Source: Candidatus Thalassarchaeum betae (GTDB lineage Archaea > Thermoplasmatota > Poseidoniia > Poseidoniales > Thalassarchaeaceae). From it: a stretch of DNA of 64,000 nt. The notes below the pieces were generated by a model that did not search any database, was not told where the DNA came from, and saw only the letters and a program-made list of their open reading frames with translations. This document shows, one piece after another, positions 17 through 60,276 of this stretch. The DNA is taken from positions 2,065 through 66,064 of the forward strand of contig JAKUUP010000005.1 of assembly GCA_022447095.1 (NCBI GenBank), written 5' to 3'. The translations under genes and the position numbers were made by a program. Each line of letters starts with the position of its first letter. Within the stretch, counting starts at the first letter, position 1.

Positions 17-120
17 CCGCGCTTAGCTCAGTTGGCTAGAGCACCTGACTGTAGACTGGAAACACTTGGTTGTAGGCAGCCATCAGGGGGTCCCCGGTTC
101 AAGTCCGGGAGCGCGGACCA
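17..120 (+). tRNA. tRNA-Tyr (anticodon GUA) with a ~27-nt intron at the canonical 37/38 position; CCA encoded
   Basis: Cloverleaf folded by hand. Acceptor stem CCGCGCT (17-23) pairs with AGCGCGG (110-116), followed by discriminator A117 and CCA 118-120. D arm GCTC-AGTTGGCTA-GAGC (26-42). Anticodon stem CCTGA (44-48) pairs with TCAGG (83-87); anticodon loop CTGTAG has GTA at 51-53. The intron of ~27 nt (55-81) is inserted 3' of position 37. T arm CCCGG-TTCAAGT-CCGGG (93-109). The C1:G72 pair is the archaeal/eukaryal tRNA-Tyr identity element. Confidence 0.8.
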
Positions 121-4700: not shown

Positions 4701-4719
4701 CGCACCTCTAGGAGGTGCG
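4701..4719 (+). promoter_or_regulatory. Hairpin that sequesters the Shine-Dalgarno sequence of the downstream giant gene
   Basis: cgcacctc-tag-gaggtgcg forms a perfect 8-bp stem. Its 3' arm contains GGAGGTG (a strong SD) 4-10 nt upstream of ATG 4723. Confidence 0.3.
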
Positions 4720-9694: not shown

Positions 9695-9744
9695 GCAGTA
9701 TCAAGCATGACTATTGATGGGTTCAAAGAACCCATACGCTCAAA

Positions 9745-12700
9745 TTGGTTACGAGAAGGCGAGAGCCGATGACAAAGCGTTCAGTCTCAGTCGTGATGGC
9801 GGTTTTGTTACTTTCATACCTGCCTATTCTCGACCAGTCATCGTCCTATGAAAACTCCCCCGAAGAGGGCTTGGCACTGGATTCCGCAGTGGAGAGAATA
9901 GAGATATCTCCAGACCCTAACAGCATCCAGAACCTTGGCGCTCCAAACATCTACTCGGGCTATGAGGACATCCGTTCCCTCCGTGCTGACTCAACGATTG
10001 GAGTCTACACCGGGGCCGGACTCCTTCCCGGTGTCGCGATGAGCTCTAAATTGGCCGAGACGCGCTCCGATCTGGCTATCGTCCTAGTCGATGGTGAGGC
10101 CGGCCTCTGGGATGCCAGACAGGAGATCCTAGATGCAGTCGAAGTCGAGATAAGGTCTACCATCCCACCATCGGGATTCCTCGTCCAAGGTTCCCCCGGA
10201 CAACTCGCTGAGTTGACTCGCATCTCCGTGGTCAGCGCCGTACACGATGTCCCAGCCGGACTGTTGGTGCACCCGATGTTCTGGGAGGCTAATGGAGATG
10301 AGACCATCCTCGTTGAGGTACTCGGCTGGAAGGACTCCGAACTCATTCGTCACAGCGAGCCCGGACTAGGCTTGGACGACTCGCTCAGCATCGCTGCCTC
10401 GCTATGGCTCGAAGAGGCATGGTCGCCCGAGCAAGGTAGGATTTGGGGTGAGATTGGTATCAGCGATATCTCTCAGATTGTCAGGCATCCATCGGTGGCT
10501 TACGTGGCACCGCTGCCATTGCTGATGCTACATAACGACGAGGCCCGTGACCACATGGGAATCAACACCGTGGATAACACCTTCATCACCGGGCTAAACG
10601 GCAGCGGACAGAAGATAGCCGTAGGCGACTCCGGACTCGACAACGATCATGGTGACTTCACCGGTAGAGTCTCGGGGCTGACATCTGTCACTCCAGGCGA
10701 CTCATCCACCGCAGATCCTTCTGACGGGCACGGAACTCACGTTGCCTGCACCGTCCTCGGTGATGGCTACCGCAGTAGTGGGACCTACCAAGGAATCGCT
10801 CCAGAGGCCCTGCTTTACTTCCAGGCGATGGAGGATGACGACACCGGAGCCCTCTACAGTTATGGCATCAACAGCATGCTTAACTCGGCCTACAACAACG
10901 GTGCTCGCTTACACACCAACAGTTGGGGCGCAGGCAGTGGTTCAGGCAGCTACTCAACTCAGTCCGAGGACGCCGACGACCGCACCTCTACCTGGGACCA
11001 GTACTGGTCTTACCAAGGGATGACGGTGTTGTTCGCCGCTGGTAACGAGGGCAACGACGGGGTCTCCCCTCCAGGCACCGCGAAGAACGTCATCACCATC
11101 GGCGCCCATCAGAACCGATACAGCGGCGCTCCGGACGATATGTACTACTGGAGCAGCCGCGGACCGACCGACGATGGCAGGATCAAGCCGGATCTGGTCG
11201 CCCCGGGAGAATACGTTCGCTCTTGTAAGGCTCAGGAGGCGCAGGACGCAGAAGGCTCTTGGAGCAACAACTGGTATCTTGAATATACAGGGACATCGAT
11301 GGCAACGCCAGCAGCGGCCGGTGCCGCCGTCCTCGTCAGAGAGTACCTGATGGAGGTCGCTGGCAGACAGGCCCCTCAGAGTGCCCTCGTCAAGGGACTG
11401 CTAATCCTAGGTGCCATGGACATGGGCACCCGGGACATCCCCAACAACAACGAGGGTTGGGGAAGGGTCAATCTGGTCGACTCGCTAATTCCAGACAACG
11501 ATGTCGGCATATTCGTGGATGACCGCTCACGCCTCTCCAGCGGGCAGGTGAGCGAGTACACCTTCGACGTCACCCGCGCCGGCGAGCCGATGAAGGTGGT
11601 TCTGACTTGGTCCGACTACCCCGGCTCTTCATCCTCCTCAAGCCAACTCAGAAACGACCTCGACCTAGAGGTGATTTCGCCTAACGGGCAGGTCACATAC
11701 AAGGGGAACGCCTTCGTCAACGGCCACTCAGTCACTGGCGGTACCAAGGACTCCACCAACAACGTAGAAGTCGTCCTGATGGATAACGCCGCGACCGGCA
11801 CGTGGACAGTCCGCGTGCGCGATGCGCAGCATGGTGGTGGGCGTACATGGCAACCCTACGCGCTCGCAGTCCGTGGAGTGAACGTGAACGACCTGACCCC
11901 CGACCCAGCATTCGTACAGAACTCATTCGAGATTACCTCTGCGATTCCACAGGTCGGCGAGGAGGTCGATGTCACTGTGACTGTTCAGAACCTAGGTGCC
12001 GGTTCCGTAGCCGAAGTCGCTGTGATTGCAAGAGCCGACAGTGAACTACTCGGTACTCAAACTCTGAGCATGTCCCCAGGAGAGTCTGCCGAGTTGTCTT
12101 GGAACTGGACCCCCGACCATGAGGGAGAGGTGGAGTTCACTTTCCACATCGACCCGAGCGATACGGTAGAGGAGACCTCGGAATCGAACAACTACTTGTC
12201 ACAGACGGTGGTGGTCAGCGCACCTGGGGTTCGCGTTACCACCGAGCAGGACACCATGACGCTGGCAGATGCGACCGACAGTTCGACGACTTGGGAGTTG
12301 TTCCTGATGAACACGGCTCTGTTTGAGACCAACGCCTCCATTGTCGTCACCGATCCCGTGCGAGTACAGGACGGCGTCGAGTTCGACTGGTTCACATCTT
12401 TCACCTCGAATACCTTCAACCTCGAAGCCGCCGAGATGACAACCATTGGCCTGACGGTAGTCCATCCGGCCCCACCTCCGCCCGGCCTCTATCGGATGGT
12501 GGTGACCGGGACCGACATTGAGAACGATATCGATTCTGAACTGATGCTCTACTTCGAGGTCCCGATACTGGCTGAGGCCGACATAGTCCTCCCCGGAGAG
12601 CAGTTCCTAGTCAGTCCACTCGAGCCGACAGATCTCCAGATACTGGTCTTCAACGATGGCAACGGTGCTCAGGCCTACGATGTCGAACTCGTCTCCCCTG

Positions 12701-14271
12701 CTGGCTGGCACCTCGGTCTAGATACTCTCGGGGCCTTCGCAGGCTCCTCGCACGGCTCCACAGGCACGCTCGCAAAGGACGCCGGCCGGGCCGTTGACAT
12801 CACAATCAACCCACCGGGCGCGATGATTCCAGCCGACTCTGTCTACGACGCGGCCATCATAGTCCACTCTCGTGTAAGCTCCGACTCCTGGAGTGCAGAC
12901 ATCCAATTAGTCGTCAAGGTGATAGACCAAGTCAGTACCACTCCCTCATCAGATGGCATTGAGCATGACATCGCACCTGATGCTCTTCTGGAGTTTGAGA
13001 TTGAGTTCAACAACCAAGGCAACCGCTTGATAGTCTTCCAACCTTATGTGAGGAGCATTCCTGGTGGCTGGGAAGTCTTAGGCGGTCTGTACCCAGCCCA
13101 CGTCCCAGCCGGTGAGACAGCAGTTTGGCCGGTCTCCCTGCAAGGCAACGGTGTAGCGGTCAGCGGCGATCTTCAATTGAGGTTCGCGACCGAGGACGGC
13201 TACTACGTGGATTGGAACAGGACCTTGGACGTTCTATCCGGAGCCATGCCGACTTTGGATTTCCACCTTGTCGCCCTCCCGGATGGAACCACCGCCGATT
13301 ACCCGCTTGGAGTGCCCGCTCATCCAGTCGGGGCACCGGGGTTCGATCTCGGTTGGACGGTTACCAACGAAGGCTCCACCACATGGCGTCCTATGACCTA
13401 CATGGAAGTGCCTAACGATGATTGGTCTTCGACGTGCGTCGGTCCATCCACCCTCTCCGCCGGTGCCACTTCTACGGTCTGGTGCACCGTCGTCATCCCA
13501 CTGTCAGCCGAAGCCAACTCCGAGCCGATTGTGACTCTGGTAATGGAGGGCGAGGGAGTTGAGGTGAGTGACTCAATCTCGCTGTTGGTCGAGTCCGTAG
13601 CCCGAGTGAGTTGGACCGTCACCAACCAGCAGGTCGCACATGAGGGCTACGAGACCGTGCTCTACCTCGACCTTCAGAATGTCGGCAACTCGGATATCGC
13701 CCATGTCCTGCAAGCCTCTGGTCCGGATGATTGGAACGCACTGATTCTCGATGGGGTGGTTGTCAATCTGCGCCCTGGCGAGACGCGCAATCTCCAACTC
13801 GGATTCACACCCAACACTGGGGTGGATGGAACACTAGTGGTGGAACTCGGTGATTCCAACGATATCGAGGACTCCACCTTCACCATAGAGATCGACGTGC
13901 TGCCAGCGAGGATAGAGGAGGGCATGTCCGCTCTCGAGATGGTACTTGTTGCAACCCTCATCCTCGCCTTCGCCGGAGGAGTCGGATTCTTCGTTTACTC
14001 TAGGACTGGAGCCGATAAGGCCAGTCTGATCAAAACTGAGACACTCAGCAAGATTGCGGACAGCTTCGGGCTTGCCGAGGAGGAGAGAGTGGAGGGCAGC
14101 GGCGTTCCCTGCTGGATATGCAGCCAAGACATCGTCCTCGGCGGGGCGTGGGCTTGCTCTGAGTGCGGAGCGAGGTATCACAAGGGTGGCCAGGTCGATG
14201 GCTGTGACATCGTTTCGATGGGACACTGCATGCACTGCGATGCCGACGTGGACGGGCTTGTAGAAGCGTGA
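9745..14271 (+). CDS. Membrane-anchored subtilisin-like serine protease (peptidase S8) with beta-sandwich repeat domains and a cytoplasmic Cys/His-rich zinc-binding tail
   Basis: Signal peptide. Catalytic triad motifs in order: Asp (AVGDSGLDNDHGDF), His (DGHGTHVACTVLGDG), Ser (GTSMATPAAAGAAVLV). Post-catalytic VLTWSDYPG...NDLDLEV beta-sandwich. CARDB-like repeats, TM (LEMVLVATLILAFAGGVGFFVY), and a tail with CWIC, CSEC, C-x7-CMHC. Confidence 0.85.
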   Translation: MVTRRREPMTKRSVSVVMAVLLLSYLPILDQSSSYENSPEEGLALDSAVERIEISPDPNSIQNLGAPNIYSGYEDIRSLRADSTIGVYTGAGLLPGVAMSSKLAETRSDLAIVLVDGEAGLWDARQEILDAVEVEIRSTIPPSGFLVQGSPGQLAELTRISVVSAVHDVPAGLLVHPMFWEANGDETILVEVLGWKDSELIRHSEPGLGLDDSLSIAASLWLEEAWSPEQGRIWGEIGISDISQIVRHPSVAYVAPLPLLMLHNDEARDHMGINTVDNTFITGLNGSGQKIAVGDSGLDNDHGDFTGRVSGLTSVTPGDSSTADPSDGHGTHVACTVLGDGYRSSGTYQGIAPEALLYFQAMEDDDTGALYSYGINSMLNSAYNNGARLHTNSWGAGSGSGSYSTQSEDADDRTSTWDQYWSYQGMTVLFAAGNEGNDGVSPPGTAKNVITIGAHQNRYSGAPDDMYYWSSRGPTDDGRIKPDLVAPGEYVRSCKAQEAQDAEGSWSNNWYLEYTGTSMATPAAAGAAVLVREYLMEVAGRQAPQSALVKGLLILGAMDMGTRDIPNNNEGWGRVNLVDSLIPDNDVGIFVDDRSRLSSGQVSEYTFDVTRAGEPMKVVLTWSDYPGSSSSSSQLRNDLDLEVISPNGQVTYKGNAFVNGHSVTGGTKDSTNNVEVVLMDNAATGTWTVRVRDAQHGGGRTWQPYALAVRGVNVNDLTPDPAFVQNSFEITSAIPQVGEEVDVTVTVQNLGAGSVAEVAVIARADSELLGTQTLSMSPGESAELSWNWTPDHEGEVEFTFHIDPSDTVEETSESNNYLSQTVVVSAPGVRVTTEQDTMTLADATDSSTTWELFLMNTALFETNASIVVTDPVRVQDGVEFDWFTSFTSNTFNLEAAEMTTIGLTVVHPAPPPPGLYRMVVTGTDIENDIDSELMLYFEVPILAEADIVLPGEQFLVSPLEPTDLQILVFNDGNGAQAYDVELVSPAGWHLGLDTLGAFAGSSHGSTGTLAKDAGRAVDITINPPGAMIPADSVYDAAIIVHSRVSSDSWSADIQLVVKVIDQVSTTPSSDGIEHDIAPDALLEFEIEFNNQGNRLIVFQPYVRSIPGGWEVLGGLYPAHVPAGETAVWPVSLQGNGVAVSGDLQLRFATEDGYYVDWNRTLDVLSGAMPTLDFHLVALPDGTTADYPLGVPAHPVGAPGFDLGWTVTNEGSTTWRPMTYMEVPNDDWSSTCVGPSTLSAGATSTVWCTVVIPLSAEANSEPIVTLVMEGEGVEVSDSISLLVESVARVSWTVTNQQVAHEGYETVLYLDLQNVGNSDIAHVLQASGPDDWNALILDGVVVNLRPGETRNLQLGFTPNTGVDGTLVVELGDSNDIEDSTFTIEIDVLPARIEEGMSALEMVLVATLILAFAGGVGFFVYSRTGADKASLIKTETLSKIADSFGLAEEERVEGSGVPCWICSQDIVLGGAWACSECGARYHKGGQVDGCDIVSMGHCMHCDADVDGLVEA

Positions 14272-32561: not shown

Positions 32562-32629
32562 AATCGACATCTATGATGTCGAGCCCATTCAATTGAAGGC
32601 TCGCGTGCTGTCTGAGGGGTCCGAGAGAC

Positions 32630-39036: not shown

Positions 39037-39090
39037 TGCGACCAGCCCTCAGGGCTGGTCAGCATCCCTTCAATCAATCGGCTATTCCGC

Positions 39091-52590: not shown

Positions 52591-53361
52591 TCATCCACGC
52601 AGACCTAGTTTGCGCGCCAGCATGGCCAGTGGATCGTAGTATTCGGTCACCACTCTCTCCTTGAGAGGGATGATCGCGTTGTCTGTGATGTTGATGCCTG
52701 CAGGACATACCTCGGTACAGCACTTGGTGATGTTGCAGTAGCCGATGCCGAAATCATCCTTGATCTCAGGAATTCGGCTCACGGTGTCCAGTGGGTGCAT
52801 TTCGAGATTGGCGAGTCGGACGAAGAAGCGCGGGCCGGCGAACTCGTCGAACTTCTGGTGCTCGCGCAGAACATGGCAGGTGTTTACGCAGAGCATGCAT
52901 TCTATGCAGGAGCGGAACTCCTGCAACCGCTCAGCCTCCTCTTGGTGAAACTCCCAGTCGGGTTCCTCGTGGCCGCTAATCGGCTCGATGAGCTTGACCA
53001 TCTCGTATGCCCAAGAATTGTCAGTCACCAAGTCCTTAGTCAGCGGGAAGGCCTGCATCGGCTTGATCAGGACAGGCTCGCCATCTGGGGTCTCCTCAAG
53101 GACGTCTTCCATCCTAGTCATGCACATCAACTTCGGCTTGCCATTGACCTCAGCGCTGCACGAGCCGCACTTGCCCGCCTTGCAGTTCCAGCGGCATGCA
53201 AGGTCCGGGGACTGCTCGGCTTGTATCCGGTGAATGACGTCTAGCACCACCATGCCCTCATCCATCTCGACGGTGTAATCGACCATCCGTCCGAATGGCT
53301 CGCCGTCGGCATCCGACTCCCCTCTGAACACCCTGAACGTGACCTCGTTACTCATACTCAT
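52591..53361 (-). CDS. sdhB: Succinate dehydrogenase/fumarate reductase iron-sulfur subunit
   Basis: CRWNCKAGKCGSCSAEVNG ([2Fe-2S]), CIECMLCVNTC and CNITKCCTEVCPAGI. Confidence 0.9.
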   Translation of the reverse strand: MSMSNEVTFRVFRGESDADGEPFGRMVDYTVEMDEGMVVLDVIHRIQAEQSPDLACRWNCKAGKCGSCSAEVNGKPKLMCMTRMEDVLEETPDGEPVLIKPMQAFPLTKDLVTDNSWAYEMVKLIEPISGHEEPDWEFHQEEAERLQEFRSCIECMLCVNTCHVLREHQKFDEFAGPRFFVRLANLEMHPLDTVSRIPEIKDDFGIGYCNITKCCTEVCPAGINITDNAIIPLKERVVTEYYDPLAMLARKLGLRG

Positions 53362-55220
53362 TCCTCCTCATGCAGGTCATCCGCGTCCAGCAGCGACCTG
53401 AGCTTCTCCGATATCGGAGGGTAAGAAGCGTAGTCGATGTCCATAGAGCCGCCCTCGCCCATTGAGATCACGCTGGTGACCTTGCCCCAGTGGTGGTGGT
53501 CCGTCTCGGGGAAATCGTCGCGGGTGTGCGCGCCACGGCTCTCTTCGCGTCTGTGAGCAGCGAGAGCGCACATCCGACTGACTTCGATCATCGCACTCAA
53601 CTCGAGCGCCTGATGCCAACCCGGGTTGTACGTTCTTCCTCCGCCTGGAGATGTGGCAGCAGCGCGCTCTTCCAGAGAGTCTAGGTCTGCAATGGCCTCC
53701 AGAAGCAGATCCCTGGTCCTGATGATGCCGGCCTTCTGCTGCATCATCTGGCGCAGGTCGCTCACGACCTTGGCCGGGTTCTCACCGCCTTCGCGGCTCA
53801 AGGGCTCTAGAGTTTCTGCCACTACATGGTCGACCTCGGACTGGTCTACGTCAGTGAAGTGACTCATCAGTTTGGCCGCCTCGGCGGCCTGCTCACCAGC
53901 AATCTTACCGAACACTAAGAGGTCGGTCAGAGAGTTGCCACCCAGTCGATTGGCTCCGTGCAGGCCGGTTGCCACTTCTCCGGCAGCATATAGGCCGGTC
54001 ACCGAGGTCTCCTGGGTGTTGGAGTTGACCTTGACGCCACCCATCACGTAATGGGCTGTTGGCCCGACCTCCATTGGTTGCTTGGTGATGTCCACTGCAG
54101 CGAGTTCCTTGAATTGGTGGTACATCCCAGGGAGCTTCTTCATAATCTGCTCTGGATCGCGCCAGGAGATGTCGAGGTAGACGCCGCCGTGCTCGGACGC
54201 TCTCCCAGCATCACGCTCGCTGTTGATCGCCTTGGCAACCACGTCGCGGGTCAGCAGCTCGGGAGGCCTGCGATGCGTAGCGGGCTTATCGGAGATGACC
54301 TCGTCGACCCAAGCGAGCGCCTCCTCCTCGGTGTCGGCGAACTCATCTGCGTACATCTCAGGGATGTAGTCGAACATGAAACGCGCACCCTCGGAGTTTC
54401 GTAGTACGCCGCCTTCCCCGCGAACTCCCTCGGTGACCAGTATGCCCTTGACTGAGGGGGGCCAAATCATGCCGGTGGGATGGAACTGGACGAACTCCAT
54501 ATCGCCCATCTCGGCCCCAGCCCAGTATGCCAGAGCGTGACCCTCGCCTGTGTATTCCCACGAGCCCGAGCAGACCTCCCAGCAACGCGTGAGCCCCCCG
54601 GTTGCGAGAATAATCGTCTTGGCCTTGAAGACGTGTAGTGAACCGTCGTTGCGATCATACGCGAAGCATCCGGAGATGCGACCATCGGTCTCGAACAACC
54701 TGCGCACGGTGAATTCCATGAACACGTCCATCCCCATGTGGATGCCCCTCTGCTGCAGCGTTCGAATGAGCTCGAGGCCGGTGGCATCGCCGATGTGCGC
54801 CAGCCTCGGATAGGTGTGCCCGCCGAAGTTGCGCTGGCTGGTCAGCCCCTCCGCCGTCCTGTCGAAGACAGCGCCCCATTGTTCGAGTTCGCGAATCCTG
54901 TCCGGCGCCTGCTGAGCATGGATCTGCGCCATCTGCCAGTCTCCGAGGTACTTGCCTCCTTTCATGGTGTCACGGAAATGGATCTCCCACGAGTCCCGGG
55001 GGTCCTTGTTGGCGAGGGCCGCGGCAGCGCCGCCCTCGGCCATCACAGTGTGGGCCTTGCCCAGCATTGACTTACAGATCATGGCCACGCTGACTCCCGC
55101 TGCGCTGGCCTCGATAGCGGCCCGCAGCCCAGCTCCCCCAGCGCCGATGACGACAACGTCATGCTCATGCATCACGATGTCTTCCATCAGACACCACCCC
55201 ACAGGATGATCTCTGTCCAC
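53358..55220 (-). CDS. sdhA: Succinate dehydrogenase/fumarate reductase flavoprotein subunit
   Basis: DVVVIGAGGAGLRAA (FAD binding), FHPTG (covalent FAD His), and an active-site R/H region. Confidence 0.92.
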   Translation of the reverse strand: MDRDHPVGWCLMEDIVMHEHDVVVIGAGGAGLRAAIEASAAGVSVAMICKSMLGKAHTVMAEGGAAAALANKDPRDSWEIHFRDTMKGGKYLGDWQMAQIHAQQAPDRIRELEQWGAVFDRTAEGLTSQRNFGGHTYPRLAHIGDATGLELIRTLQQRGIHMGMDVFMEFTVRRLFETDGRISGCFAYDRNDGSLHVFKAKTIILATGGLTRCWEVCSGSWEYTGEGHALAYWAGAEMGDMEFVQFHPTGMIWPPSVKGILVTEGVRGEGGVLRNSEGARFMFDYIPEMYADEFADTEEEALAWVDEVISDKPATHRRPPELLTRDVVAKAINSERDAGRASEHGGVYLDISWRDPEQIMKKLPGMYHQFKELAAVDITKQPMEVGPTAHYVMGGVKVNSNTQETSVTGLYAAGEVATGLHGANRLGGNSLTDLLVFGKIAGEQAAEAAKLMSHFTDVDQSEVDHVVAETLEPLSREGGENPAKVVSDLRQMMQQKAGIIRTRDLLLEAIADLDSLEERAAATSPGGGRTYNPGWHQALELSAMIEVSRMCALAAHRREESRGAHTRDDFPETDHHHWGKVTSVISMGEGGSMDIDYASYPPISEKLRSLLDADDLHEEE

Positions 55221-56068
55221 CAGCCCATGGTGCAGGCGTAGATGTACAAGTCAGCGAACATGACGATGAACAGAGAATAGAGGGCCCATTCTTTGTGGTA
55301 CTCGTTAAACCACGTCGACACTCTCCACATCCGGTATCCCAGTATGGGTCTGGAATCTCTCGTCCAGAGATTAGCTCCCCCTCCGACCAGATGTCGGAAG
55401 GCATGGCAACCGAAGGTGTAGCCAGCTAGGGCAATGACGTTGACAGCTAGGACCAAGGAGCCCACCGAGACCCCGTATGAGTGAGCATGACTCACCGGGT
55501 CGTGGAAGTTGACTGACATCCAGACGTCGTACGACAGTATTGGCAGGTATGCCAACGCGGCGTAGAGGAAGTAGCGATGCAGGTTCTGGACGAGCAGCAG
55601 CCCGGTCTCGCCGCTGTACTCGTTCCACGGCTTGGAGACCGCGCAACCGGTGGGTTGCTGCATGAAGGCCCGATAGTACGCCTTGCGGTAATAGTAGCAT
55701 GTTCCTCTGAAGCCAGCGGGGAAGATCAGAATGAACATCGCCGGACTCATCCACCACAACTGCTGAGGAATCCAGGAGTTCTCATCTGGGTAAATAAGCG
55801 GACTAAACAACGGACTTAGAACGTGACTACCTTCGCTCTCTATGGCCATTGTTTGGTTGCCCGCACTCCTGCCGAACTCCTCAAAGATCCAGAAGTCGGC
55901 TTCCATGAACCCACGCCAGGTGGCGTATACGATCATGATCCCAAGGTAGGCGGCCATCGCCGTCGGCCCCTTCCACCAGTCATCGACCCGGTCTGTGACA
56001 CCGAACCCCTTCTTCATCGGGAGCGGGAGTTTGATGCCCTCACTCATGTCCATCCCTGATGCCCGCAT
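55187..56068 (-). CDS. sdhC: Succinate dehydrogenase/fumarate reductase diheme cytochrome b membrane anchor (five-TM type)
   Basis: Five predicted TMs with conserved His. The N-terminal DDWWKGPTAMAAYLGIMIVYATW resembles Wolinella FrdC (LDWWQSATGLFLGLFMIGHMF). Confidence 0.5.
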   Translation of the reverse strand: MRASGMDMSEGIKLPLPMKKGFGVTDRVDDWWKGPTAMAAYLGIMIVYATWRGFMEADFWIFEEFGRSAGNQTMAIESEGSHVLSPLFSPLIYPDENSWIPQQLWWMSPAMFILIFPAGFRGTCYYYRKAYYRAFMQQPTGCAVSKPWNEYSGETGLLLVQNLHRYFLYAALAYLPILSYDVWMSVNFHDPVSHAHSYGVSVGSLVLAVNVIALAGYTFGCHAFRHLVGGGANLWTRDSRPILGYRMWRVSTWFNEYHKEWALYSLFIVMFADLYIYACTMGWWTEIILWGGV

Positions 56069-56161
56069 CGCGCGGTCCTAGCCCCATAAGGGATTGCATG
56101 AGTCCCCTTGGGACTCAACCGTCGGTGCAAGGTTCAAGGCGCACAGCCCTAATCGTCAGAT

Positions 56162-56269
56162 ATGGTTGGGGGAGACATCGAGACATCGATCTGCCTCAAC
56201 TGCGGGCACATGCCGGGAGCGTGGCTGCCCGGGCTGCCCTGCCCAGAGTGCGGGGAGCCAATGCTCTGA
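56162..56269 (+). CDS. Candidate 35-aa zinc-ribbon micro-protein (MVGGDIETSICLNCGHMPGAWLPGLPCPECGEPML)
   Basis: Lies below the ORF-track cutoff; translated by hand from the 209-nt gap between sdhC and the aldehyde dehydrogenase gene. CxxC-x12-CxxC. Confidence 0.35.
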   Translation: MVGGDIETSICLNCGHMPGAWLPGLPCPECGEPML

Positions 56270-56277
56270 GCGTAGCG

Positions 56278-57924
56278 TCATGCAAGGCCCGCGTAGTCAG
56301 CGTCGGCTTCCTCGATGTGGACTTCGTCAACGTCCATCTGCGCCAGTTGCAACTTGCCGGAGAGCTCGTCGTTGACGGCGTGCCAGTACGAGTATGCCTC
56401 GATAACCCAGATGCCCGACTCACGAGTGCCGTTGCCGCTGCCCTTGACACCACCGAACGGCAGGTGAGCCTCAGCCCCAGTGGTGGAGTTGTTGATACCG
56501 GTCATCCCGGCCTTGATACCGGTCTTGAATCGGTATGCCTCAAGCCTGTCATTGGTGTAGCAGGCGCTGGATAGACCGTAGGGAGAGGCGTTGGCGAGGT
56601 GGAGCGCGTGGTCGAAATCCTTCGCCTTCACAACAGTCACCGCGGGCCCGAAAATCTCCTCGTGGAAGCACTCCATGTCTTCAGTCACATCGGCATATAC
56701 GTGAGGCCACATGTAGACTCCCTCGGAGGCGTCCCCGACGAAGTTAATCGGCTTGTTTTCGTTCGTAATTATCCCCTCACCCCAAAGTTTGGTCGCACCA
56801 CTGGATTCGCACATCCCGAGATCGCTCAGGAAGTCCTTGGCGTACTTCTCCGACAGCATGGGTCCGTACAGGATATCGTCGTGGCGCATCGAGTCGCCGA
56901 CGCTGGTTGACTCCACTTTAGCCATGAACTTCGACATGAATTCGTCGTAGATCTCTTCGTGGATGATGAGATTGCCTAAGGAAGTGCAGCGCTGACCCGC
57001 TGTGCCGAAGCCAGCCCAGTAGGCTCCCTCCACTGCGTTGTCAAGGTTGGCTGATGGCATCACGACGAGAGGATTCTTGCCGCCGAGTTCTAGTGAGCAG
57101 GAGACTAGGTTACGACCGCAGATCTCGCCGATCATCTTGCCCACTGCGGTCGAGCCAGTGAAACTAATCTTGTTGACCATGCCCTCGTCGACAGCATCGA
57201 CAAGGCTCTGACCGGCACCTCTGCCCTTTCCGTGAACTAGGTTGATGACTCCATCAGGCAGACCCGCCTCATGCATTATGCGCGTGAGCATGAAGGATAG
57301 CAGAGGCGCGTCCTGCGGCGACTTCCAGACGCAGGTGTTGCCGCACATGATGGCGGGAATCATCTTCCAGAACGGCACTGCGGCTGGGAAGTTACAGGCG
57401 TTGATGATGCCGCAGACCCCCAAGGGTCGGCGGTAGGTGAAAAGCTCCTTGTCCGGCAATTCGGAGTTGACCGTTTGACCGTACAGTCGGCGACCCTCGG
57501 ATTGGAAGAATAGGCAGGTGTCGATGGCCTCTTGGACCGACCCCGCGCTCTCCATGAGTGTCTTACCGATTTCGCGAGTCTCGACTCGAACGATGTCATC
57601 TTTGTATTCCATCAGTAGGCGCCCCATGTTTCCTATGATCTGACCGCGTGTGGGAGCGGGCGTTGAAGCCCAGCCAGGGAAGGCCGCCTTTGCTGCACTC
57701 AAGGCATCGTGAACATCCTCTTTTTCGGAGAGCGGAAACTCGCCGAGGCAGTCGTCCAGCCAAGCCGGGTTGTGACTCTCGAACGTGCCTCCGTCCTTGG
57801 CCAGAGTCAACTGCCCGTTGACGATGTTGTAACCACGAACCTTTGGACTCCCGTTTGGATTGGCGTTCTCCATAACTTCGAATCCAGTCTCAAGCACATG
57901 GGTCATGTCTCCCGCGAATCGCAC
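56278..57924 (-). CDS. NAD(P)-dependent aldehyde dehydrogenase
   Basis: ELGGKNP (catalytic Glu), GQRCTS (catalytic Cys), FTGST.VG. Confidence 0.9.
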   Translation of the reverse strand: MRFAGDMTHVLETGFEVMENANPNGSPKVRGYNIVNGQLTLAKDGGTFESHNPAWLDDCLGEFPLSEKEDVHDALSAAKAAFPGWASTPAPTRGQIIGNMGRLLMEYKDDIVRVETREIGKTLMESAGSVQEAIDTCLFFQSEGRRLYGQTVNSELPDKELFTYRRPLGVCGIINACNFPAAVPFWKMIPAIMCGNTCVWKSPQDAPLLSFMLTRIMHEAGLPDGVINLVHGKGRGAGQSLVDAVDEGMVNKISFTGSTAVGKMIGEICGRNLVSCSLELGGKNPLVVMPSANLDNAVEGAYWAGFGTAGQRCTSLGNLIIHEEIYDEFMSKFMAKVESTSVGDSMRHDDILYGPMLSEKYAKDFLSDLGMCESSGATKLWGEGIITNENKPINFVGDASEGVYMWPHVYADVTEDMECFHEEIFGPAVTVVKAKDFDHALHLANASPYGLSSACYTNDRLEAYRFKTGIKAGMTGINNSTTGAEAHLPFGGVKGSGNGTRESGIWVIEAYSYWHAVNDELSGKLQLAQMDVDEVHIEEADADYAGLA

Positions 57925-58050
57925 TTACGCCATGAATCCTACTCCTCGGGTCCCATTGTTCCGATAACCGTTTGAGCCAAAGGGACAACTCTTTGTTGGT
58001 AGGTTTAACTAGCCTCATGAACGAAGGGTATCTGCTAGGAGCGTGCCGTT

Positions 58051-60276
58051 GTGTCAGAAGACTCGTCAGAATCCTTGACTCTCAGGGTGGCGAAGGCCAT
58101 ACCAAGCGATGTAGGACACGGCCGAGCGCGTGTTCCTTTCGACAACGAACTCAATCTCAAACCCGGCGACATAGTCGAGATCGCGGGCGAACAAAGCACC
58201 GCCGCCATCGTCTGGCGCTGCCGACCCGAGGACGCAAACCTAGGAGTTATCAGAATTGACGGAATAATCAGAAAAAACGCAGGCGTGAGCCTCGGTGACC
58301 GCGTCACCATCACCAAGGTAGAGACCCAACCGTGCGAGCGTTTGGTGCTCAGCCCTGTGATGGCGAAGCAGCAGAAGGTCCGCTTCGGACCAGGCATCGA
58401 GGGCTTCGCCCGACGCGGCCTCAACAAGCGACCGGTGGTCGCCGGCGACCGCATTTTCATCCCAGGCATGACTCTGTTTGCCGAGGCCCTCCCGTTCGCA
58501 ATCGTCTCGACCAATCCGAAAGGCATCGTACAGGTACTCCCGGACACTGAGATAATCATCAAGGAGGATGCCGTAGATGAGGAAGAAACCGGACAGATCC
58601 AGACCATCTCCTACGAGGACATCGGTGGCATCGGAGAGCAACTGCAGAAGGTTCGTGAGATGATTGAACTCCCGTTGAAGCACCCCATCCTCTTCAGGCG
58701 TCTCGGAATCGACCCTCCGAGGGGTGTACTGCTCCATGGCCCACCCGGGACCGGTAAGACCCTAATCGCCAAGGCAGTCGCCTCAGAGACGAAAGCCCAT
58801 TTCACTTCAATCAACGGTCCGGAGATTATCTCGAAGTATTACGGGGAGAGCGAGAAGCAACTCCGCGAAATTTTCGACGAGGCCGCTGCCAACGCCCCAG
58901 CGATCATCTTCATTGACGAACTCGACAGTATCGCGCCCAAGCGAGAGGACGTCACCGGGGAGGTCGAGCGTCGGGTCGTAGCCCAACTCCTGACTCTCCT
59001 CGATGGTATGGAGGGGCGCGACAACGTCGTTGTGATCGGCGCAACCAACCGCCGTGACGCCATCGACCCGGCTCTGCGCCGACCCGGCCGCTTTGACCGT
59101 GAGTTGGAGATCGGCGTTCCCGACAAGAACGGCCGCGAAGAGATCATCAATATCCACACCCGTGGAATGCCGATTAGCGACGACTTCGACATCGATTGGC
59201 TGCTCGATAACTCGTACGGCTTTGTCGGCGCCGACATCTCGGCCCTTGTCCGCGAGTCGGCGATGAAGGCGCTGCGCCGATACCTCCCTGAGATTGACCT
59301 CGACGAGGAGCAGATTCCTCCCGAGGTTCTCGAGAAGATGGAGGTCACCATGTCTGACTTCCGTCAGGCCATCAAGGAGATAGAGCCGAGCGCTCTGCGC
59401 GAGATATATCTCGAGGTCCCTGAGGTCTCTTGGGACGAGGTCGGTGGTTTGGAAGAGGTCAAGGAGAGGCTCAAGGAAAGCATCGAGTGGCCTCTGACCA
59501 AGCCCGAATTGTTCGAGCATTTTGGAATCAGCCCTCCGAGGGGAATCATCCTGTTCGGAGCCCCCGGGACTGGCAAGACCCTGATTGCCAAGGCGATAGC
59601 CAACGAGGCCAAGGCCAATTTCATCACCATCAAAGGGCCGGAATTAATCTCTAAGTGGGTAGGTGAATCGGAGAAGGCCGTCCGCGAGGTTTTCAAGAAG
59701 GCCAAGCAGTCCAGCCCCTCCATCGTCTTCCTCGACGAGTTCGAGAGCATTGCAGGCATGCGGCGATCCTCTTCAGGTGATGGCTCCGACGTCATGAACC
59801 GCGTCGTGAACCAACTACTGAGCAGCATGGACGGCGTCGAGAGCATGGAAGGCGTCATAGTGGTCGCCGCGACAAACCGTCCAGAGATGATCGACCCCGC
59901 ACTCCTGCGGAGCGGCAGGTTCGAGCGCGTCCTACACATCCCACCGCCCGACGCTGCCGCGATGGAAGAGATCCTCAAGATTCACACCGCGGACATGCCG
60001 CTTGGCAGGTTCAAGCTCAACAGCCTTGCTTCAAGTCTGCAGAATTACACCGGCGCCGACATTGAGGCTATTTGTCGCGAGGCCGCTTTGATAGCGATGA
60101 GGGCTGAGCGAAAGACAGTCTCGAAGAAGCACTTTGAGCAGGCAATCGGGCGAGTACGCCCAACCGTTACCGATGAGATGATGCAGTACTACGGTCGCAT
60201 GGAAGCGATGCTCACCAGTGGCCTCGAGTCGGTCCGCCGGCGTCCTGATGGCCTCTCGGGTATCGAATCTGTATGA
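58051..60276 (+). CDS. cdc48: Cdc48/VCP-like AAA+ ATPase (N-domain plus D1 and D2)
   Basis: Two Walker A motifs ([30 protein letters not shown]), two Walker B motifs ([16 protein letters not shown]), second-region-of-homology arginine fingers, and an N-terminal double-psi barrel. Confidence 0.92.

What the first reader, a model, noticed from the sequence alone, without database searches (positions are those of the whole stretch)
56162..56269. Unannotated 35-codon zinc-ribbon ORF in the sdhC / aldehyde dehydrogenase intergenic gap
ATG 56162 to TGA 56269 encodes MVGGDIETSICLNCGHMPGAWLPGLPCPECGEPML (CxxC-x12-CxxC). It is below the 60-aa ORF cutoff and occupies an otherwise unexplained 209-nt gap flanked by two minus-strand genes. 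Archaea are rich in such zinc-finger micro-proteins.
Basis: seen in the sequence. Interest (0 to 1): 0.5.

Follow-up and report, generated by a model that had tools for sequence, protein, structure and literature searches.

The report
Conserved 35-residue four-cysteine archaeal microprotein gene
The 35-codon reading frame is a real, strongly conserved gene for a tiny four-cysteine metal-binding protein found across Marine Group II archaea, but what that protein does in the cell remains unknown.

Summary
It encodes MVGGDIETSICLNCGHMPGAWLPGLPCPECGEPML and fills the 209-nt gap between two minus-strand genes.

It is a real gene. The same frame, start and stop recur in 72 of 80 related Thalassarchaeaceae (MGIIb) loci and in 120 metagenome loci. 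All four Cys are invariant. Variation sits at third codon positions (entropy 0.54/0.32/1.55), and pN/pS is 0.235. Only this frame is open in all 72 unique sequences. A GGTT[CAG]A motif ends exactly 24 nt before the ATG in 29 loci, which fits its own promoter and a leaderless mRNA.

The family is 32-40 aa and acidic (pI about 4.2). It reaches no Pfam or NCBIfam cut-off. Public sources call it 'hypothetical protein' or give it stray labels (rubrerythrin, RpoP, YacG). It occurs in both MGII families.

Linkage to sdhC is lineage-specific. Other members lie after a HAD phosphatase gene or opposite an acyl-CoA desaturase gene.

Best reading: a free-standing Cys4 (probably zinc) knuckle protein that binds a protein partner. 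An iron-binding mini-rubredoxin is the main rival. It is a new family of a known kind, of moderate interest.

The parts
56162..56269 (+). Coding sequence of the 35-aa Cys4 microprotein, stop codon included
   Evidence: Sequence and ORF list. Identical peptide called as a gene on two public contigs. Frame conserved in 72/80 related loci. Codon-position entropy 0.54/0.32/1.55 and pN/pS 0.235. It is the only frame open in all 72 unique core sequences. GC3 is 0.83, against 0.72-0.75 for neighbouring genes.
56192..56206 (+). First metal knuckle, C11-L-N-C14-G15
   Evidence: Cys, Cys and Gly are invariant in 72/72 unique genome-locus sequences and in all aligned database members.
56207..56239 (+). 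Conserved loop between the knuckles, residues 16-26 (HMPGAWLPGLP). G15 of the first knuckle is the twelfth spacer residue.
   Evidence: M17 is in 71/72 sequences. P18, G19, P23 and G24 are invariant within MGIIb. Position 16 is H/F/Y and position 21 is W/F/Y. In other lineages the loop reads LLGAF/TIGIF.
56240..56254 (+). Second metal knuckle, C27-P-E-C30-G31
   Evidence: Both Cys are invariant. Gly is present in 70/72 sequences and replaced by Asp in the rest.
56131..56137 (+). GGTTCAA, a promoter-like (TATA-box-position) motif whose end lies 24 nt before the ATG
   Evidence: GGTT[CAG]A occurs within 110 nt upstream in 59 of 75 unique upstream regions, against 6.6% expected. Its end is exactly 24 nt from the start codon in 29 loci, even where the N-terminal length varies from 5 to 8 codons. 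No Shine-Dalgarno sequence precedes the ATG, although many genes in the window have GGAGGTG-like ones. Promoter function and a leaderless mRNA are inferred.
56099..56117 (.). Perfect palindrome TGAGTCCC-CTT-GGGACTCA between the divergent starts of the microgene and sdhC
   Evidence: The arms are conserved in close relatives and replaced by other perfect palindromes in other lineages: GGGCCCC/GGGGCCC in L058 and GAACCCC/GGGGTTC in the L059 group. Its role as operator or RNA hairpin is not established.
56085..56099 (-). Conserved block CATAAGGGATTGCAT, just upstream of sdhC; a putative sdhC core promoter
   Evidence: It is conserved in MGIIb loci. Variants such as CATAAGTCATTGCAT and ACAATAAGTAATTGTAT persist next to sdhC in loci that lack the microgene. 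Function is inferred.

Best explanation
The region 56162-56269 is a genuine protein-coding gene. It is transcribed from its own promoter, probably as a leaderless mRNA. The product is a 35-residue acidic protein made of little more than two CxxCG knuckles. These four cysteines most likely hold one metal ion, probably Zn2+, and fold the peptide into a minimal zinc-ribbon or rubredoxin-knuckle domain. The protein has no Lys or Arg and a net charge of about -3.4. The conserved loop between the knuckles is hydrophobic and aromatic. For these reasons it most likely acts by docking onto a protein partner as a small adaptor or accessory subunit, not by binding nucleic acid. The family is restricted to marine Thermoplasmatota of the order Poseidoniales (MGIIa and MGIIb). 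Shown: gene reality, purifying selection, invariant Cys4, family range and genomic contexts. Inferred: metal identity, fold, leaderless transcription, and a protein partner, whose identity is unknown.
For: Coding evidence: there are 10 synonymous and 0 non-synonymous differences between the window and L001/L002. The ORF is present in 72/80 sdhC-anchored genome loci. Third-position entropy is 1.55, against 0.54 and 0.32 for positions 1 and 2. pN/pS is 0.235 in this frame; four of the five other frames exceed 1.6, and the fifth is 0.376. That fifth frame is interrupted by stops in 17 of 72 sequences, and only this frame is stop-free in all 72. Start and stop positions are conserved and lengths are 32-40 aa.

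Expression signals: a GGTT[CAG]A motif sits at a fixed 24-nt distance from the ATG, and there is no SD sequence although neighbouring genes have one.

Fold class: there are two C(P)XCG knuckles. The weak but consistent best matches are zinc-ribbon or rubredoxin-like models, such as Zn_ribbon_3, Zn_Ribbon_1 and NF033497. The top Foldseek matches are Cys4 ribbons: NrdD, the rubrerythrin C-terminal domain, small Cys4 proteins of archaeal and eukaryotic large ribosomal subunits, and RNA polymerase chain L.

Charge: mean net charge is -3.4 and pI about 4.2 over 59 unique peptides.

Range: about 55 clusters at 90% identity in 5.8 billion proteins, followed by a sharp E-value drop. Only 40 of 1.84 billion representatives reach E<=1e-3. 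Locus titles and neighbour genes are labelled Thalassarchaeaceae or Thermoplasmatota, and close relatives (84% identity) of the context C neighbour gene are labelled Poseidoniaceae.

Precedent: haloarchaeal C(P)XCG microproteins mostly bind zinc (PMC11241148).
Against: No metal, transcript or peptide has been observed. The AlphaFold2 model has modest confidence (mean pLDDT 64.9) and no structural match is significant (all E>1). No curated zinc-ribbon family reaches its cut-off. The CxxCG-x11-CPxCG spacing and the CG[YFH] and CG.P residues also match the iron-binding rubredoxin-like domain of rubrerythrin, so Zn versus Fe is open. Genomic contexts differ between lineages, so no partner can be named.
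Confidence: 0.6

Rival explanations
1. The peptide is an iron-binding mini-rubredoxin, a stand-alone version of the Fe(Cys)4 C-terminal domain of rubrerythrin. It would shuttle single electrons to or from membrane redox enzymes encoded next to it.
For: The best curated-model match is NF033497, rubrerythrin-like domain, at 20.4 bits and E=3e-4. Pfam RUBY_RBDX scores 16.7 bits for a family member. The second-ranked Foldseek match is P. furiosus rubrerythrin 1nnq_A, at 40% identity over 25 columns. JGI pipelines label several members 'rubrerythrin'. In three of four contexts the nearest neighbour is a redox enzyme: the type-F SDH anchor, an acyl-CoA desaturase that needs an electron donor, and an AhpC/TSA-redoxin-like protein.
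Against: All HMM scores are below cut-off (32 bits for NF033497). The most frequent context in the metagenome sample is downstream of a HAD-IB phosphoserine-phosphatase-like gene, which is not a redox enzyme (86 of 120 loci). The solved M. smegmatis type-F SDH consists of SdhA, SdhB and SdhC only and passes electrons internally to quinone (PMC8054011). Cys4 knuckles of this type bind zinc in most tested archaeal microproteins (PMC11241148). Sequence alone cannot decide the metal.
Confidence: 0.2
2. The microprotein is functionally dedicated to succinate dehydrogenase in MGIIb. It would be either an accessory subunit or assembly factor of the type-F complex II, or a Brz-like small regulator acting on the shared 93-nt control region with its palindrome.
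For: The gene is transcribed divergently from sdhC-sdhA-sdhB at about 95-140 nt in most of the 72 MGIIb loci, while the ALDH gene on the other side comes and goes. The same arrangement is seen in more divergent members. A conserved, co-varying palindrome lies between the two starts. There is precedent for a small zinc-finger protein that regulates the neighbouring gene (Brz, PMC2253796).
Against: In L043, L076, L077 and L078 the ALDH gene abuts sdhC with only 54-65 nt between the matches and no microgene. In several loci a 211-aa B3_4-domain gene separates them. In the HAD and desaturase contexts no SDH gene lies among the nearest neighbours. The peptide is acidic with no basic residues, which is unfavourable for DNA binding. 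Similar GC-rich 3-nt-loop hairpins are common in other intergenic regions of the window, so the palindrome is not specific to this pair.
Confidence: 0.1
3. The ORF is not translated. The conservation would reflect a cis-regulatory element, an RNA, or the antisense 41-codon ORF (56156-56281, minus strand).
For: The ORF is short and has no Shine-Dalgarno sequence. It lies between two minus-strand genes, where a terminator or promoter would be expected.
Against: There is a three-base periodicity of substitutions and pN/pS is 0.235. The antisense ORF's frame has pN/pS 1.99 and is interrupted by stops in 38 of 72 sequences. There is no Rfam match even at E<=1. Where the ORF is absent the spacer shrinks so that only 54-65 nt separate the ALDH and sdhC matches, so the extra DNA is the gene itself.
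Confidence: 0.03
4. The peptide is a mis-sized copy of a universal small zinc-ribbon protein, such as RNA polymerase subunit RpoP/Rpb12 or a zinc-ribbon ribosomal protein.
For: A JGI pipeline names one member 'RPC12/RpoP'. There are weak NCBIfam RpoP matches at E 0.0085-0.07. Chain L of S. pombe RNA polymerase II (3h0g_L) and small ribosomal proteins appear among the non-significant Foldseek matches.
Against: RpoP models score 13-16 bits against cut-offs of 63-103. The protein ends five residues after the second knuckle and lacks the basic C-terminal tail. It is acidic. The family is confined to one archaeal order, which does not fit a universal subunit.
Confidence: 0.02

Closest known systems
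Haloarchaeal C(P)XCG zinc-finger microproteins (e.g. HVO_2753, HVO_0758 of Haloferax volcanii; PMC6562870, PMC10716476, PMC11241148)
   Same: Archaeal proteins under 70 aa built around two C(P)XCG motifs. They are stand-alone genes often missed or mis-started by annotation. Most tested members bind one zinc ion.
   Different: There is no detectable sequence-family relationship: the NCBIfam HVO_2753, HVO_0758, HVO_2142 and HVO_0416 models score 8-12 bits against cut-offs of 70-90. At 32-40 aa this family is shorter. It is confined to Poseidoniales and has its own conserved loop (G[HFY]MPGA[WF]xPG). No phenotype or metal data exist.
Brz, the bacteriorhodopsin-regulating zinc-finger protein of Halobacterium salinarum (PMC2253796)
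   Same: A small CPxCG zinc-finger protein encoded in an intergenic region next to the gene it controls.
   Different: Brz lies in the same orientation as bop and is about 60 aa. Here the gene is divergent from sdhC only in MGIIb and sits elsewhere in other lineages. Sequence similarity to Brz was not tested. The peptide is acidic.
Rubredoxin-like C-terminal domain of rubrerythrin, and NCBIfam NF033497 'rubrerythrin-like domain-containing protein' (archaeal)
   Same: A CxxCG and CPxCG pair with similar spacing, and an aromatic residue after the first CG. It is the best curated-model match (20.4 bits) and a top Foldseek match (1nnq_A).
   Different: The score is below the 32-bit cut-off. There is no four-helix diiron domain, so the pipeline label 'rubrerythrin' is wrong. 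Iron binding is untested.
RNA polymerase subunit RpoP / Rpb12
   Same: A protein of about 45 aa with one Cys4 zinc ribbon.
   Different: RpoP models are far below cut-off. There is no basic C-terminal tail, the charge is acidic, and the distribution is limited to one order.
Generic bacterial CxxCGYDL...PG..CPECG zinc ribbons at the ends of larger, often membrane, proteins (P0070, P0071, P0088, P0091, P0099)
   Same: Identical Cys spacing and a 'PG-x2-CPECG' second knuckle. These are the weakest significant or near-significant profile matches, at E 1e-4 to 1e-3.
   Different: Those ribbons are domains of larger Planctomycetota-type proteins. They lack the SIC...MPGA[WF] signature and the acidic N-terminus.

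Membership tests
C(P)XCG zinc-finger microproteins of archaea (operational class; PMC6562870, PMC11241148) | Protein shorter than 70 aa | tested here: met
   35 aa in the window. The family is 32-40 aa over 59 unique peptides.
C(P)XCG zinc-finger microproteins of archaea (operational class; PMC6562870, PMC11241148) | [quoted passage not shown] | tested here: met
   CLNCG (residues 11-15) and CPECG (residues 27-31). The Cys are invariant and Gly nearly so.
C(P)XCG zinc-finger microproteins of archaea (operational class; PMC6562870, PMC11241148) | Binds one zinc ion | not testable with these tools
   This needs metal analysis of purified peptide. The literature notes that several C(P)XCG proteins do not bind zinc (PMC11241148).
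Named haloarchaeal families HVO_2753 / HVO_0758 / HVO_2142 / HVO_0416 (NCBIfam) | Score at or above the curated cut-off of the family model | tested here: not met
   8-12 bits against cut-offs of 70-90.
Pfam zinc-ribbon families (Zn_Ribbon_1 PF13240, Zn_ribbon_3 PF13248, DZR PF12773) | Score at or above the gathering threshold | tested here: not met
   14.3-18.5 bits against 25-27.3 for four family members. The matches mostly cover a single knuckle.
Zinc-ribbon fold | Two knuckles on beta-hairpins around a Cys4 site in a confident 3D model with significant structural matches | tested here: inconclusive
   AlphaFold2 mean pLDDT is 64.9 with almost no regular secondary structure. The best Foldseek PDB matches are Cys4 ribbons but all have E>1.
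Rubrerythrin / NF033497 rubrerythrin-like domain proteins | Score at or above the NF033497 cut-off (32 bits) | tested here: not met
   20.4, 18.5, 11.8 and 11.2 bits for four members.
Rubrerythrin / NF033497 rubrerythrin-like domain proteins | Diiron four-helix-bundle domain (for rubrerythrin proper) | tested here: not met
   The whole protein is 35 aa, so there is no room for it.
Rubrerythrin / NF033497 rubrerythrin-like domain proteins | Fe(Cys)4 centre with redox activity | not testable with these tools
   This requires spectroscopy of the purified peptide.
RNA polymerase subunit RpoP/Rpb12 | Score at or above the NCBIfam cut-off, plus a basic C-terminal tail after the ribbon | tested here: not met
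   10.6-15.7 bits against cut-offs of 63-103. The protein ends 5 residues after the second knuckle and its pI is about 4.2.
Subunit or assembly factor of type-F succinate dehydrogenase (Sdh1-like) | Obligate genomic co-occurrence with the sdhCAB operon | tested here: not met
   It is adjacent in 72/80 MGIIb loci. It is absent from that position in 6 loci that have upstream sequence, and in 94 of 120 metagenome loci it lies in HAD or desaturase contexts. The solved Sdh1 has only SdhA, SdhB and SdhC (PMC8054011). Genome-wide co-occurrence could not be tested.
Brz-like small zinc-finger transcription regulators | Regulates transcription of the adjacent gene | not testable with these tools
   Only the arrangement is seen: a divergent promoter region with a palindrome. 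Sequence comparison with Brz was not done.

The most novel reading that the evidence does not exclude
The peptide is a minimal, 35-residue Fe(Cys)4 rubredoxin that serves as a soluble electron carrier or extra subunit for membrane redox enzymes of Marine Group II archaea. Candidates are the type-F complex II in Thalassarchaeaceae and the acyl-CoA desaturase in Poseidoniaceae. This would fill the missing electron-donor role for an archaeal desaturase and add a component to a newly recognised class of succinate dehydrogenase.
Probability: 0.12. Interest if true: 0.6.

Novelty: new member of a known kind. Interest (0 to 1): 0.4.

Why it matters
Marine Group II archaea are among the most abundant archaea of the surface ocean and remain uncultured, so their biology is read almost entirely from gene catalogues that discard or mis-start very short genes.

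This work adds a strongly constrained, order-wide microprotein family to that catalogue. The family has no Pfam or NCBIfam model and carries contradictory pipeline labels. The work fixes the true start codon, since public calls of 53-84 aa are over-extended, and gives a signature for annotating the gene: S-I-C-x2-C-G-[HFY]-x3-[AEV]-[WF]-x-P-G-x2-C-P-x-C-[GD].

It also gives a practical warning. The window's peptide has no Lys or Arg, so trypsin-based metaproteomics cannot detect it.

The biological pay-off depends on finding its partner. If that partner is a respiratory or lipid-desaturating enzyme, the interest would rise.

Tried and rejected
I solved this by putting the 53-aa over-extended database member P0002 first in alignment A3.
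I replaced it with a degenerate DNA pattern.
- Rfam found nothing in the gap, even at E<=1.
- The sigma-70 promoter and intrinsic-terminator scan found nothing. It is not designed for archaea.
- ARAGORN found no tRNA in the window, yet Rfam found one.
- AlphaFold2 with a 30-sequence alignment gave only pLDDT 64.9, and Foldseek against the PDB gave no significant match. The fold is therefore argued from motifs only.
- Guilt by association failed. Four different conserved neighbourhoods share no common function.
- Two 90%-identity clusters contained unrelated long proteins: DnaK in one, and a cytochrome c protein in another. A third contained the neighbouring HAD hydrolase. These are clustering artefacts, not fusions.
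- I considered and rejected the antisense 41-codon ORF, the upstream in-frame ATG that gives 53 aa in some relatives (interrupted by a stop here and in L004 and L010), RpoP or a ribosomal protein, and LysW-like carrier proteins (no acidic C-terminal tail).

Full report
**1. The observation**

The window has ATG at 56162 and TGA ending at 56269 on the + strand. The frame encodes MVGGDIETSICLNCGHMPGAWLPGLPCPECGEPML. The cysteines are spaced CxxC-x12-CxxC, and both knuckles read CxxCG. An in-frame TAA at 56150 excludes a longer N-terminus.

The ORF lies in the 209-nt gap 56069-56277. On one side is the start of a minus-strand 293-aa membrane-protein gene (55187-56068). On the other is the stop of a minus-strand aldehyde dehydrogenase gene (56278-57924; Pfam Aldedh, E=3e-139).

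The 293-aa protein has no Pfam or NCBIfam match. It does match the membrane anchor SdhC of Mycobacterium smegmatis Sdh1 (PDB 7d6v_C, E=2.6e-34). It is followed by sdhA and sdhB.

A 35-codon ORF alone means little, since 67 ORFs of at least 25 aa overlap 54000-58500. The motif is rare, however, with only 3 such Cys patterns in six frames of 64 kb.

**2. Source organism**

The sdhC-like protein recovers 80 loci from MAGs labelled Candidatus Thalassarchaeum, Thalassarchaeaceae, Poseidoniales or Marine Group II. The best is Ca. Thalassarchaeum betae at 96% identity. The window is therefore from a Marine Group IIb archaeon.

**3. Is it a gene?**

- The identical peptide is called as a gene on two public contigs. 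Against those contigs the ORF shows 10 synonymous and 0 non-synonymous differences, plus a TGA-to-TAG stop change, while the flanks show ordinary changes and an indel. With roughly a quarter of sites synonymous, ten out of ten by chance is of the order of 1e-6 (my estimate).
- tblastn finds the peptide in 72 of the 80 sdhC loci, always on the strand opposite sdhC. Two of the remaining loci have no upstream sequence.
- Across 72 unique 81-nt core sequences, the mean entropy at codon positions 1/2/3 is 0.54/0.32/1.55 bits. pS is 0.805 (saturated) and pN is 0.189, giving pN/pS 0.235. Four of the other five frames exceed 1.6.
- The remaining antisense frame, at 0.376, shares its wobble position with the sense frame, and stops interrupt it in 17 of 72 sequences. 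Only the proposed frame is stop-free in all 72.
- The frame of the window's antisense 41-codon ORF is interrupted in 38 of 72 sequences and has pN/pS 1.99.
- The four Cys, G15, P18, G19, P23 and G24 are invariant in MGIIb.
- A Met 5-13 codons before the 'SIC' motif and a stop 5-6 codons after the second knuckle are conserved, giving proteins of 32-40 aa.
- Upstream in-frame ATGs exist in some relatives, and gene callers there report 53-84 aa. That region is interrupted by stops in this window, L004 and L010, and it is not conserved at the protein level.
- In-frame GC3 is 0.83, against 0.72-0.75 for neighbouring genes and 0.56-0.65 for the other two frames of the same stretch.
- Rfam finds nothing.

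**4. Expression signals**

Many genes in the window carry GGAGGTG-like Shine-Dalgarno sequences. This ORF has none.

Instead, a GGTT[CAG]A motif (GGTTCAA at 56131-56137) occurs within 110 nt upstream in 59 of 75 unique upstream regions, against 6.6% expected from its background frequency. Its end lies exactly 24 nt before the start codon in 29 loci, 31 nt in 10 loci, and 39-41 nt in 10 loci.

The 24-nt spacing holds while the number of codons between the ATG and the ribbon varies from 5 to 8. The motif therefore tracks the start codon, not the domain. An element at -31 to -25 from the ATG is where an archaeal TATA box sits relative to a transcription start (established knowledge). I infer an independent promoter and a leaderless, or in some lineages short-leader, mRNA. 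This is inference; no transcript data were available.

In the window, GGTTCAA is not over-represented overall (6 matches against 5.5 expected), and one copy is simply a tRNA T-loop.

**5. Family and range**

No Pfam or NCBIfam model reaches its cut-off. The best are NF033497 (rubrerythrin-like domain, 20.4 bits against 32), Zn_Ribbon_1 and Zn_ribbon_3 (15-18 bits against 25-27), and RpoP models (13-16 bits against 63-103). phmmer against PDB sequences gives nothing below E=0.37.

A profile search of 5.8 billion proteins finds 54 clusters at E<=2.8e-6. The next hits are a Planctomycetota protein at E=0.05 and a second unrelated protein at E=0.97. An exhaustive profile search of 1.84 billion representatives finds only 40 at E<=1e-3. 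About 25 of these are small family members. The rest are generic or repeated zinc ribbons in larger proteins.

Source names are 'hypothetical protein', or the pipeline labels 'rubrerythrin', 'RPC12/RpoP' and 'YacG'. Individual variants are seen on up to 272 contigs.

Over 59 unique peptides the family is acidic, with mean net charge -3.4 and pI about 4.2. The window's peptide has no Lys or Arg at all.

**6. Genomic contexts**

- **Context A (MGIIb).** The gene is divergent from sdhC-sdhA-sdhB, about 95-140 nt from it. The aldehyde dehydrogenase gene converges on its 3' end in close relatives but lies 0.5-2 kb away, or is absent within 4 kb, in others. The same arrangement holds for the divergent members P0053 and P0051. 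In some loci a 211-aa B3_4-domain gene is inserted between the microgene and sdhC.
- **Loss beside sdhC.** In L043, L076, L077 and L078 the dehydrogenase match ends only 54-65 nt before the sdhC match, and no Cys-motif ORF exists. The extra DNA in this window's gap is therefore the microgene, and SDH does not need it next door.
- **Context B.** Here the order is a 280-aa unknown protein, then a HAD-IB phosphoserine-phosphatase-like gene, then the microgene 25-30 nt downstream or overlapping it. The microgene converges with a saccharopine-dehydrogenase-like gene, AspRS or aCPSF1. The HAD neighbour is labelled Candidatus Thermoplasmatota archaeon.
- **Context C.** The gene is divergent by about 110 nt from an acyl-CoA desaturase gene and convergent with a 3-hydroxyacyl-CoA dehydrogenase gene. 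Close relatives of that desaturase (84% identity) are labelled Candidatus Poseidoniaceae, so the family spans MGIIa and MGIIb.
- **Context D (one contig).** The gene lies 13 nt downstream of an AhpC/TSA-redoxin-like gene.
- **Metagenome sample.** A degenerate-pattern scan returned 120 loci, all carrying a family member: 86 in context B, 23 in A, 8 in C and 3 too short to classify. These proportions reflect the pattern used, not nature.

The neighbourhoods share no single function.

**7. Structure**

AlphaFold2 with a 30-sequence alignment gives mean pLDDT 64.9 and almost no regular secondary structure. This is expected for a fold that depends on a metal the method does not model.

Foldseek against the PDB gives no significant match. 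The top-ranked ones are Cys4 ribbons or knuckles: the NrdD C-terminus, rubrerythrin 1nnq_A, small Cys4 proteins of archaeal and eukaryotic large ribosomal subunits, chain L of S. pombe RNA polymerase II (3h0g_L), and DUF35 ribbons. The fold class rests on the motif, not on the model.

**8. Mechanism**

- **Shown:** the product is a conserved 35-aa peptide with an invariant Cys4 site and a conserved hydrophobic, aromatic loop with two Pro-Gly turns.
- **Inferred:** the four Cys bind one metal ion and make a minimal ribbon. Zinc is the more likely metal, by analogy with haloarchaeal C(P)XCG microproteins (PMC11241148). The acidic, Lys/Arg-poor composition argues against nucleic-acid binding, and therefore against RpoP-, ribosomal- or TFIIB-like roles. 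It favours docking on a protein.
- **Main rival (about 0.2):** an Fe(Cys)4 mini-rubredoxin. This is suggested by the rubrerythrin-domain resemblance and by redox enzymes as neighbours in contexts A, C and D. A desaturase needs an electron donor.
- **SDH-dedicated role (about 0.1):** this is weakened by the losses and the other contexts.

**9. Comparison and novelty**

This is a new, lineage-restricted family within the known kind 'archaeal C(P)XCG zinc-finger microproteins' (PMC6562870, PMC10716476, PMC11241148). Brz of Halobacterium is a precedent for a small zinc-finger protein encoded beside a gene it regulates (PMC2253796). It meets the operational definition of size and two motifs, but belongs to none of the named families.

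A survey of lineage-specific archaeal hypothetical proteins notes Poseidoniales-specific modules and many unassignable zinc-finger-like families, but does not describe this one in its main text (PMC9258230). A search for papers containing both 'Poseidoniales' and 'zinc finger' returned four, none about this family.

**10. Verdict**

It is a real, well-conserved microprotein gene of unknown partner. Interest is moderate (0.4).

**Limits.** No expression or metal data were available. The contexts were sampled with biased probes. Copy number per genome is unknown.

Noticed in passing
window 17-117 (+): Rfam finds a 101-nt tRNA (56.4 bits), evidently with an intron, that ARAGORN did not report. 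The anticodon-loop region reads CTGTAGA, possibly tRNA-Tyr (my reading, not checked).
   Followed up: partly
window 55187-56068 (-), with sdhA 53358-55220 and sdhB 52591-53361: The SDH membrane anchor has no Pfam or NCBIfam match. It aligns to M. smegmatis Sdh1 SdhC (7d6v_C, E=2.6e-34), and both His ligands of the membrane-embedded Rieske-type 2Fe-2S cluster (H155, H240) are conserved. MGIIb archaea therefore appear to use the recently defined type-F complex II.
   Followed up: partly
window 4701-4719, 9717-9735, 32564-32582, 39040-39060, 56099-56117; also 131-146: Perfect GC-rich hairpins with 7-9-bp stems and 3-nt loops number 10, against 5.75 in shuffles, and half lie in the 6.7% of DNA that is intergenic. 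The one beside the microgene is replaced by different perfect palindromes in other lineages (L058, L059 group). A near copy, GAGTCCC-TAC-GGGACT, follows the tRNA. Their function is unknown (terminator, processing site or protein-binding site).
   Followed up: partly
L100, L105, L110, L113, L117, L121, L166, L180, L195, L212 (and L017, L013, L024, L020, L073): In one MGIIb sublineage the microgene lies about 750 nt from sdhC. In the L1xx loci listed first, a 211-aa B3_4-domain gene (PF03483) fills that space. The five genome loci in brackets show the same spacing, but their insert was not annotated.
   Followed up: partly
L042 3583-3645 (-): A second, partial copy of the 3' half of the microgene (GHLPGAWLPGLPCPECGEPLL) lies about 110 nt downstream of the intact copy. 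It is probably a small tandem duplication remnant.
   Followed up: no
L090 1354-1776 (+) (protein P0093): A 140-aa protein on a short contig next to an outer-membrane efflux (OEP) gene ends in DDIEISICFDCGHMVEGWLPEQRCTECGGPMG. This closely resembles the microprotein, including its acidic lead-in (profile E=8.6e-5). It may be a fused or transferred copy outside Poseidoniales.
   Followed up: no
L091 4120-4837 (-), L092 3257-3974 (-): In the lineage carrying P0051, the single sdhC-like gene upstream of sdhA is replaced by two gene calls of 167 and 73 aa. This could be a split anchor or a frameshift; I did not examine it.
   Followed up: no
window 14110-14166 (+): This is the only other Cys4 pattern (CWIC-x12-CSEC) lying in a long ORF of the window, 9745-14271, which encodes a very large protein. 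It has no similarity to the microprotein.
   Followed up: no
protein clusters: Three 90%-identity clusters that hold microprotein members also contain unrelated long proteins: DnaK, a cytochrome c family protein, and the neighbouring HAD hydrolase. These are clustering artefacts that could mislead automated annotation.
   Followed up: partly
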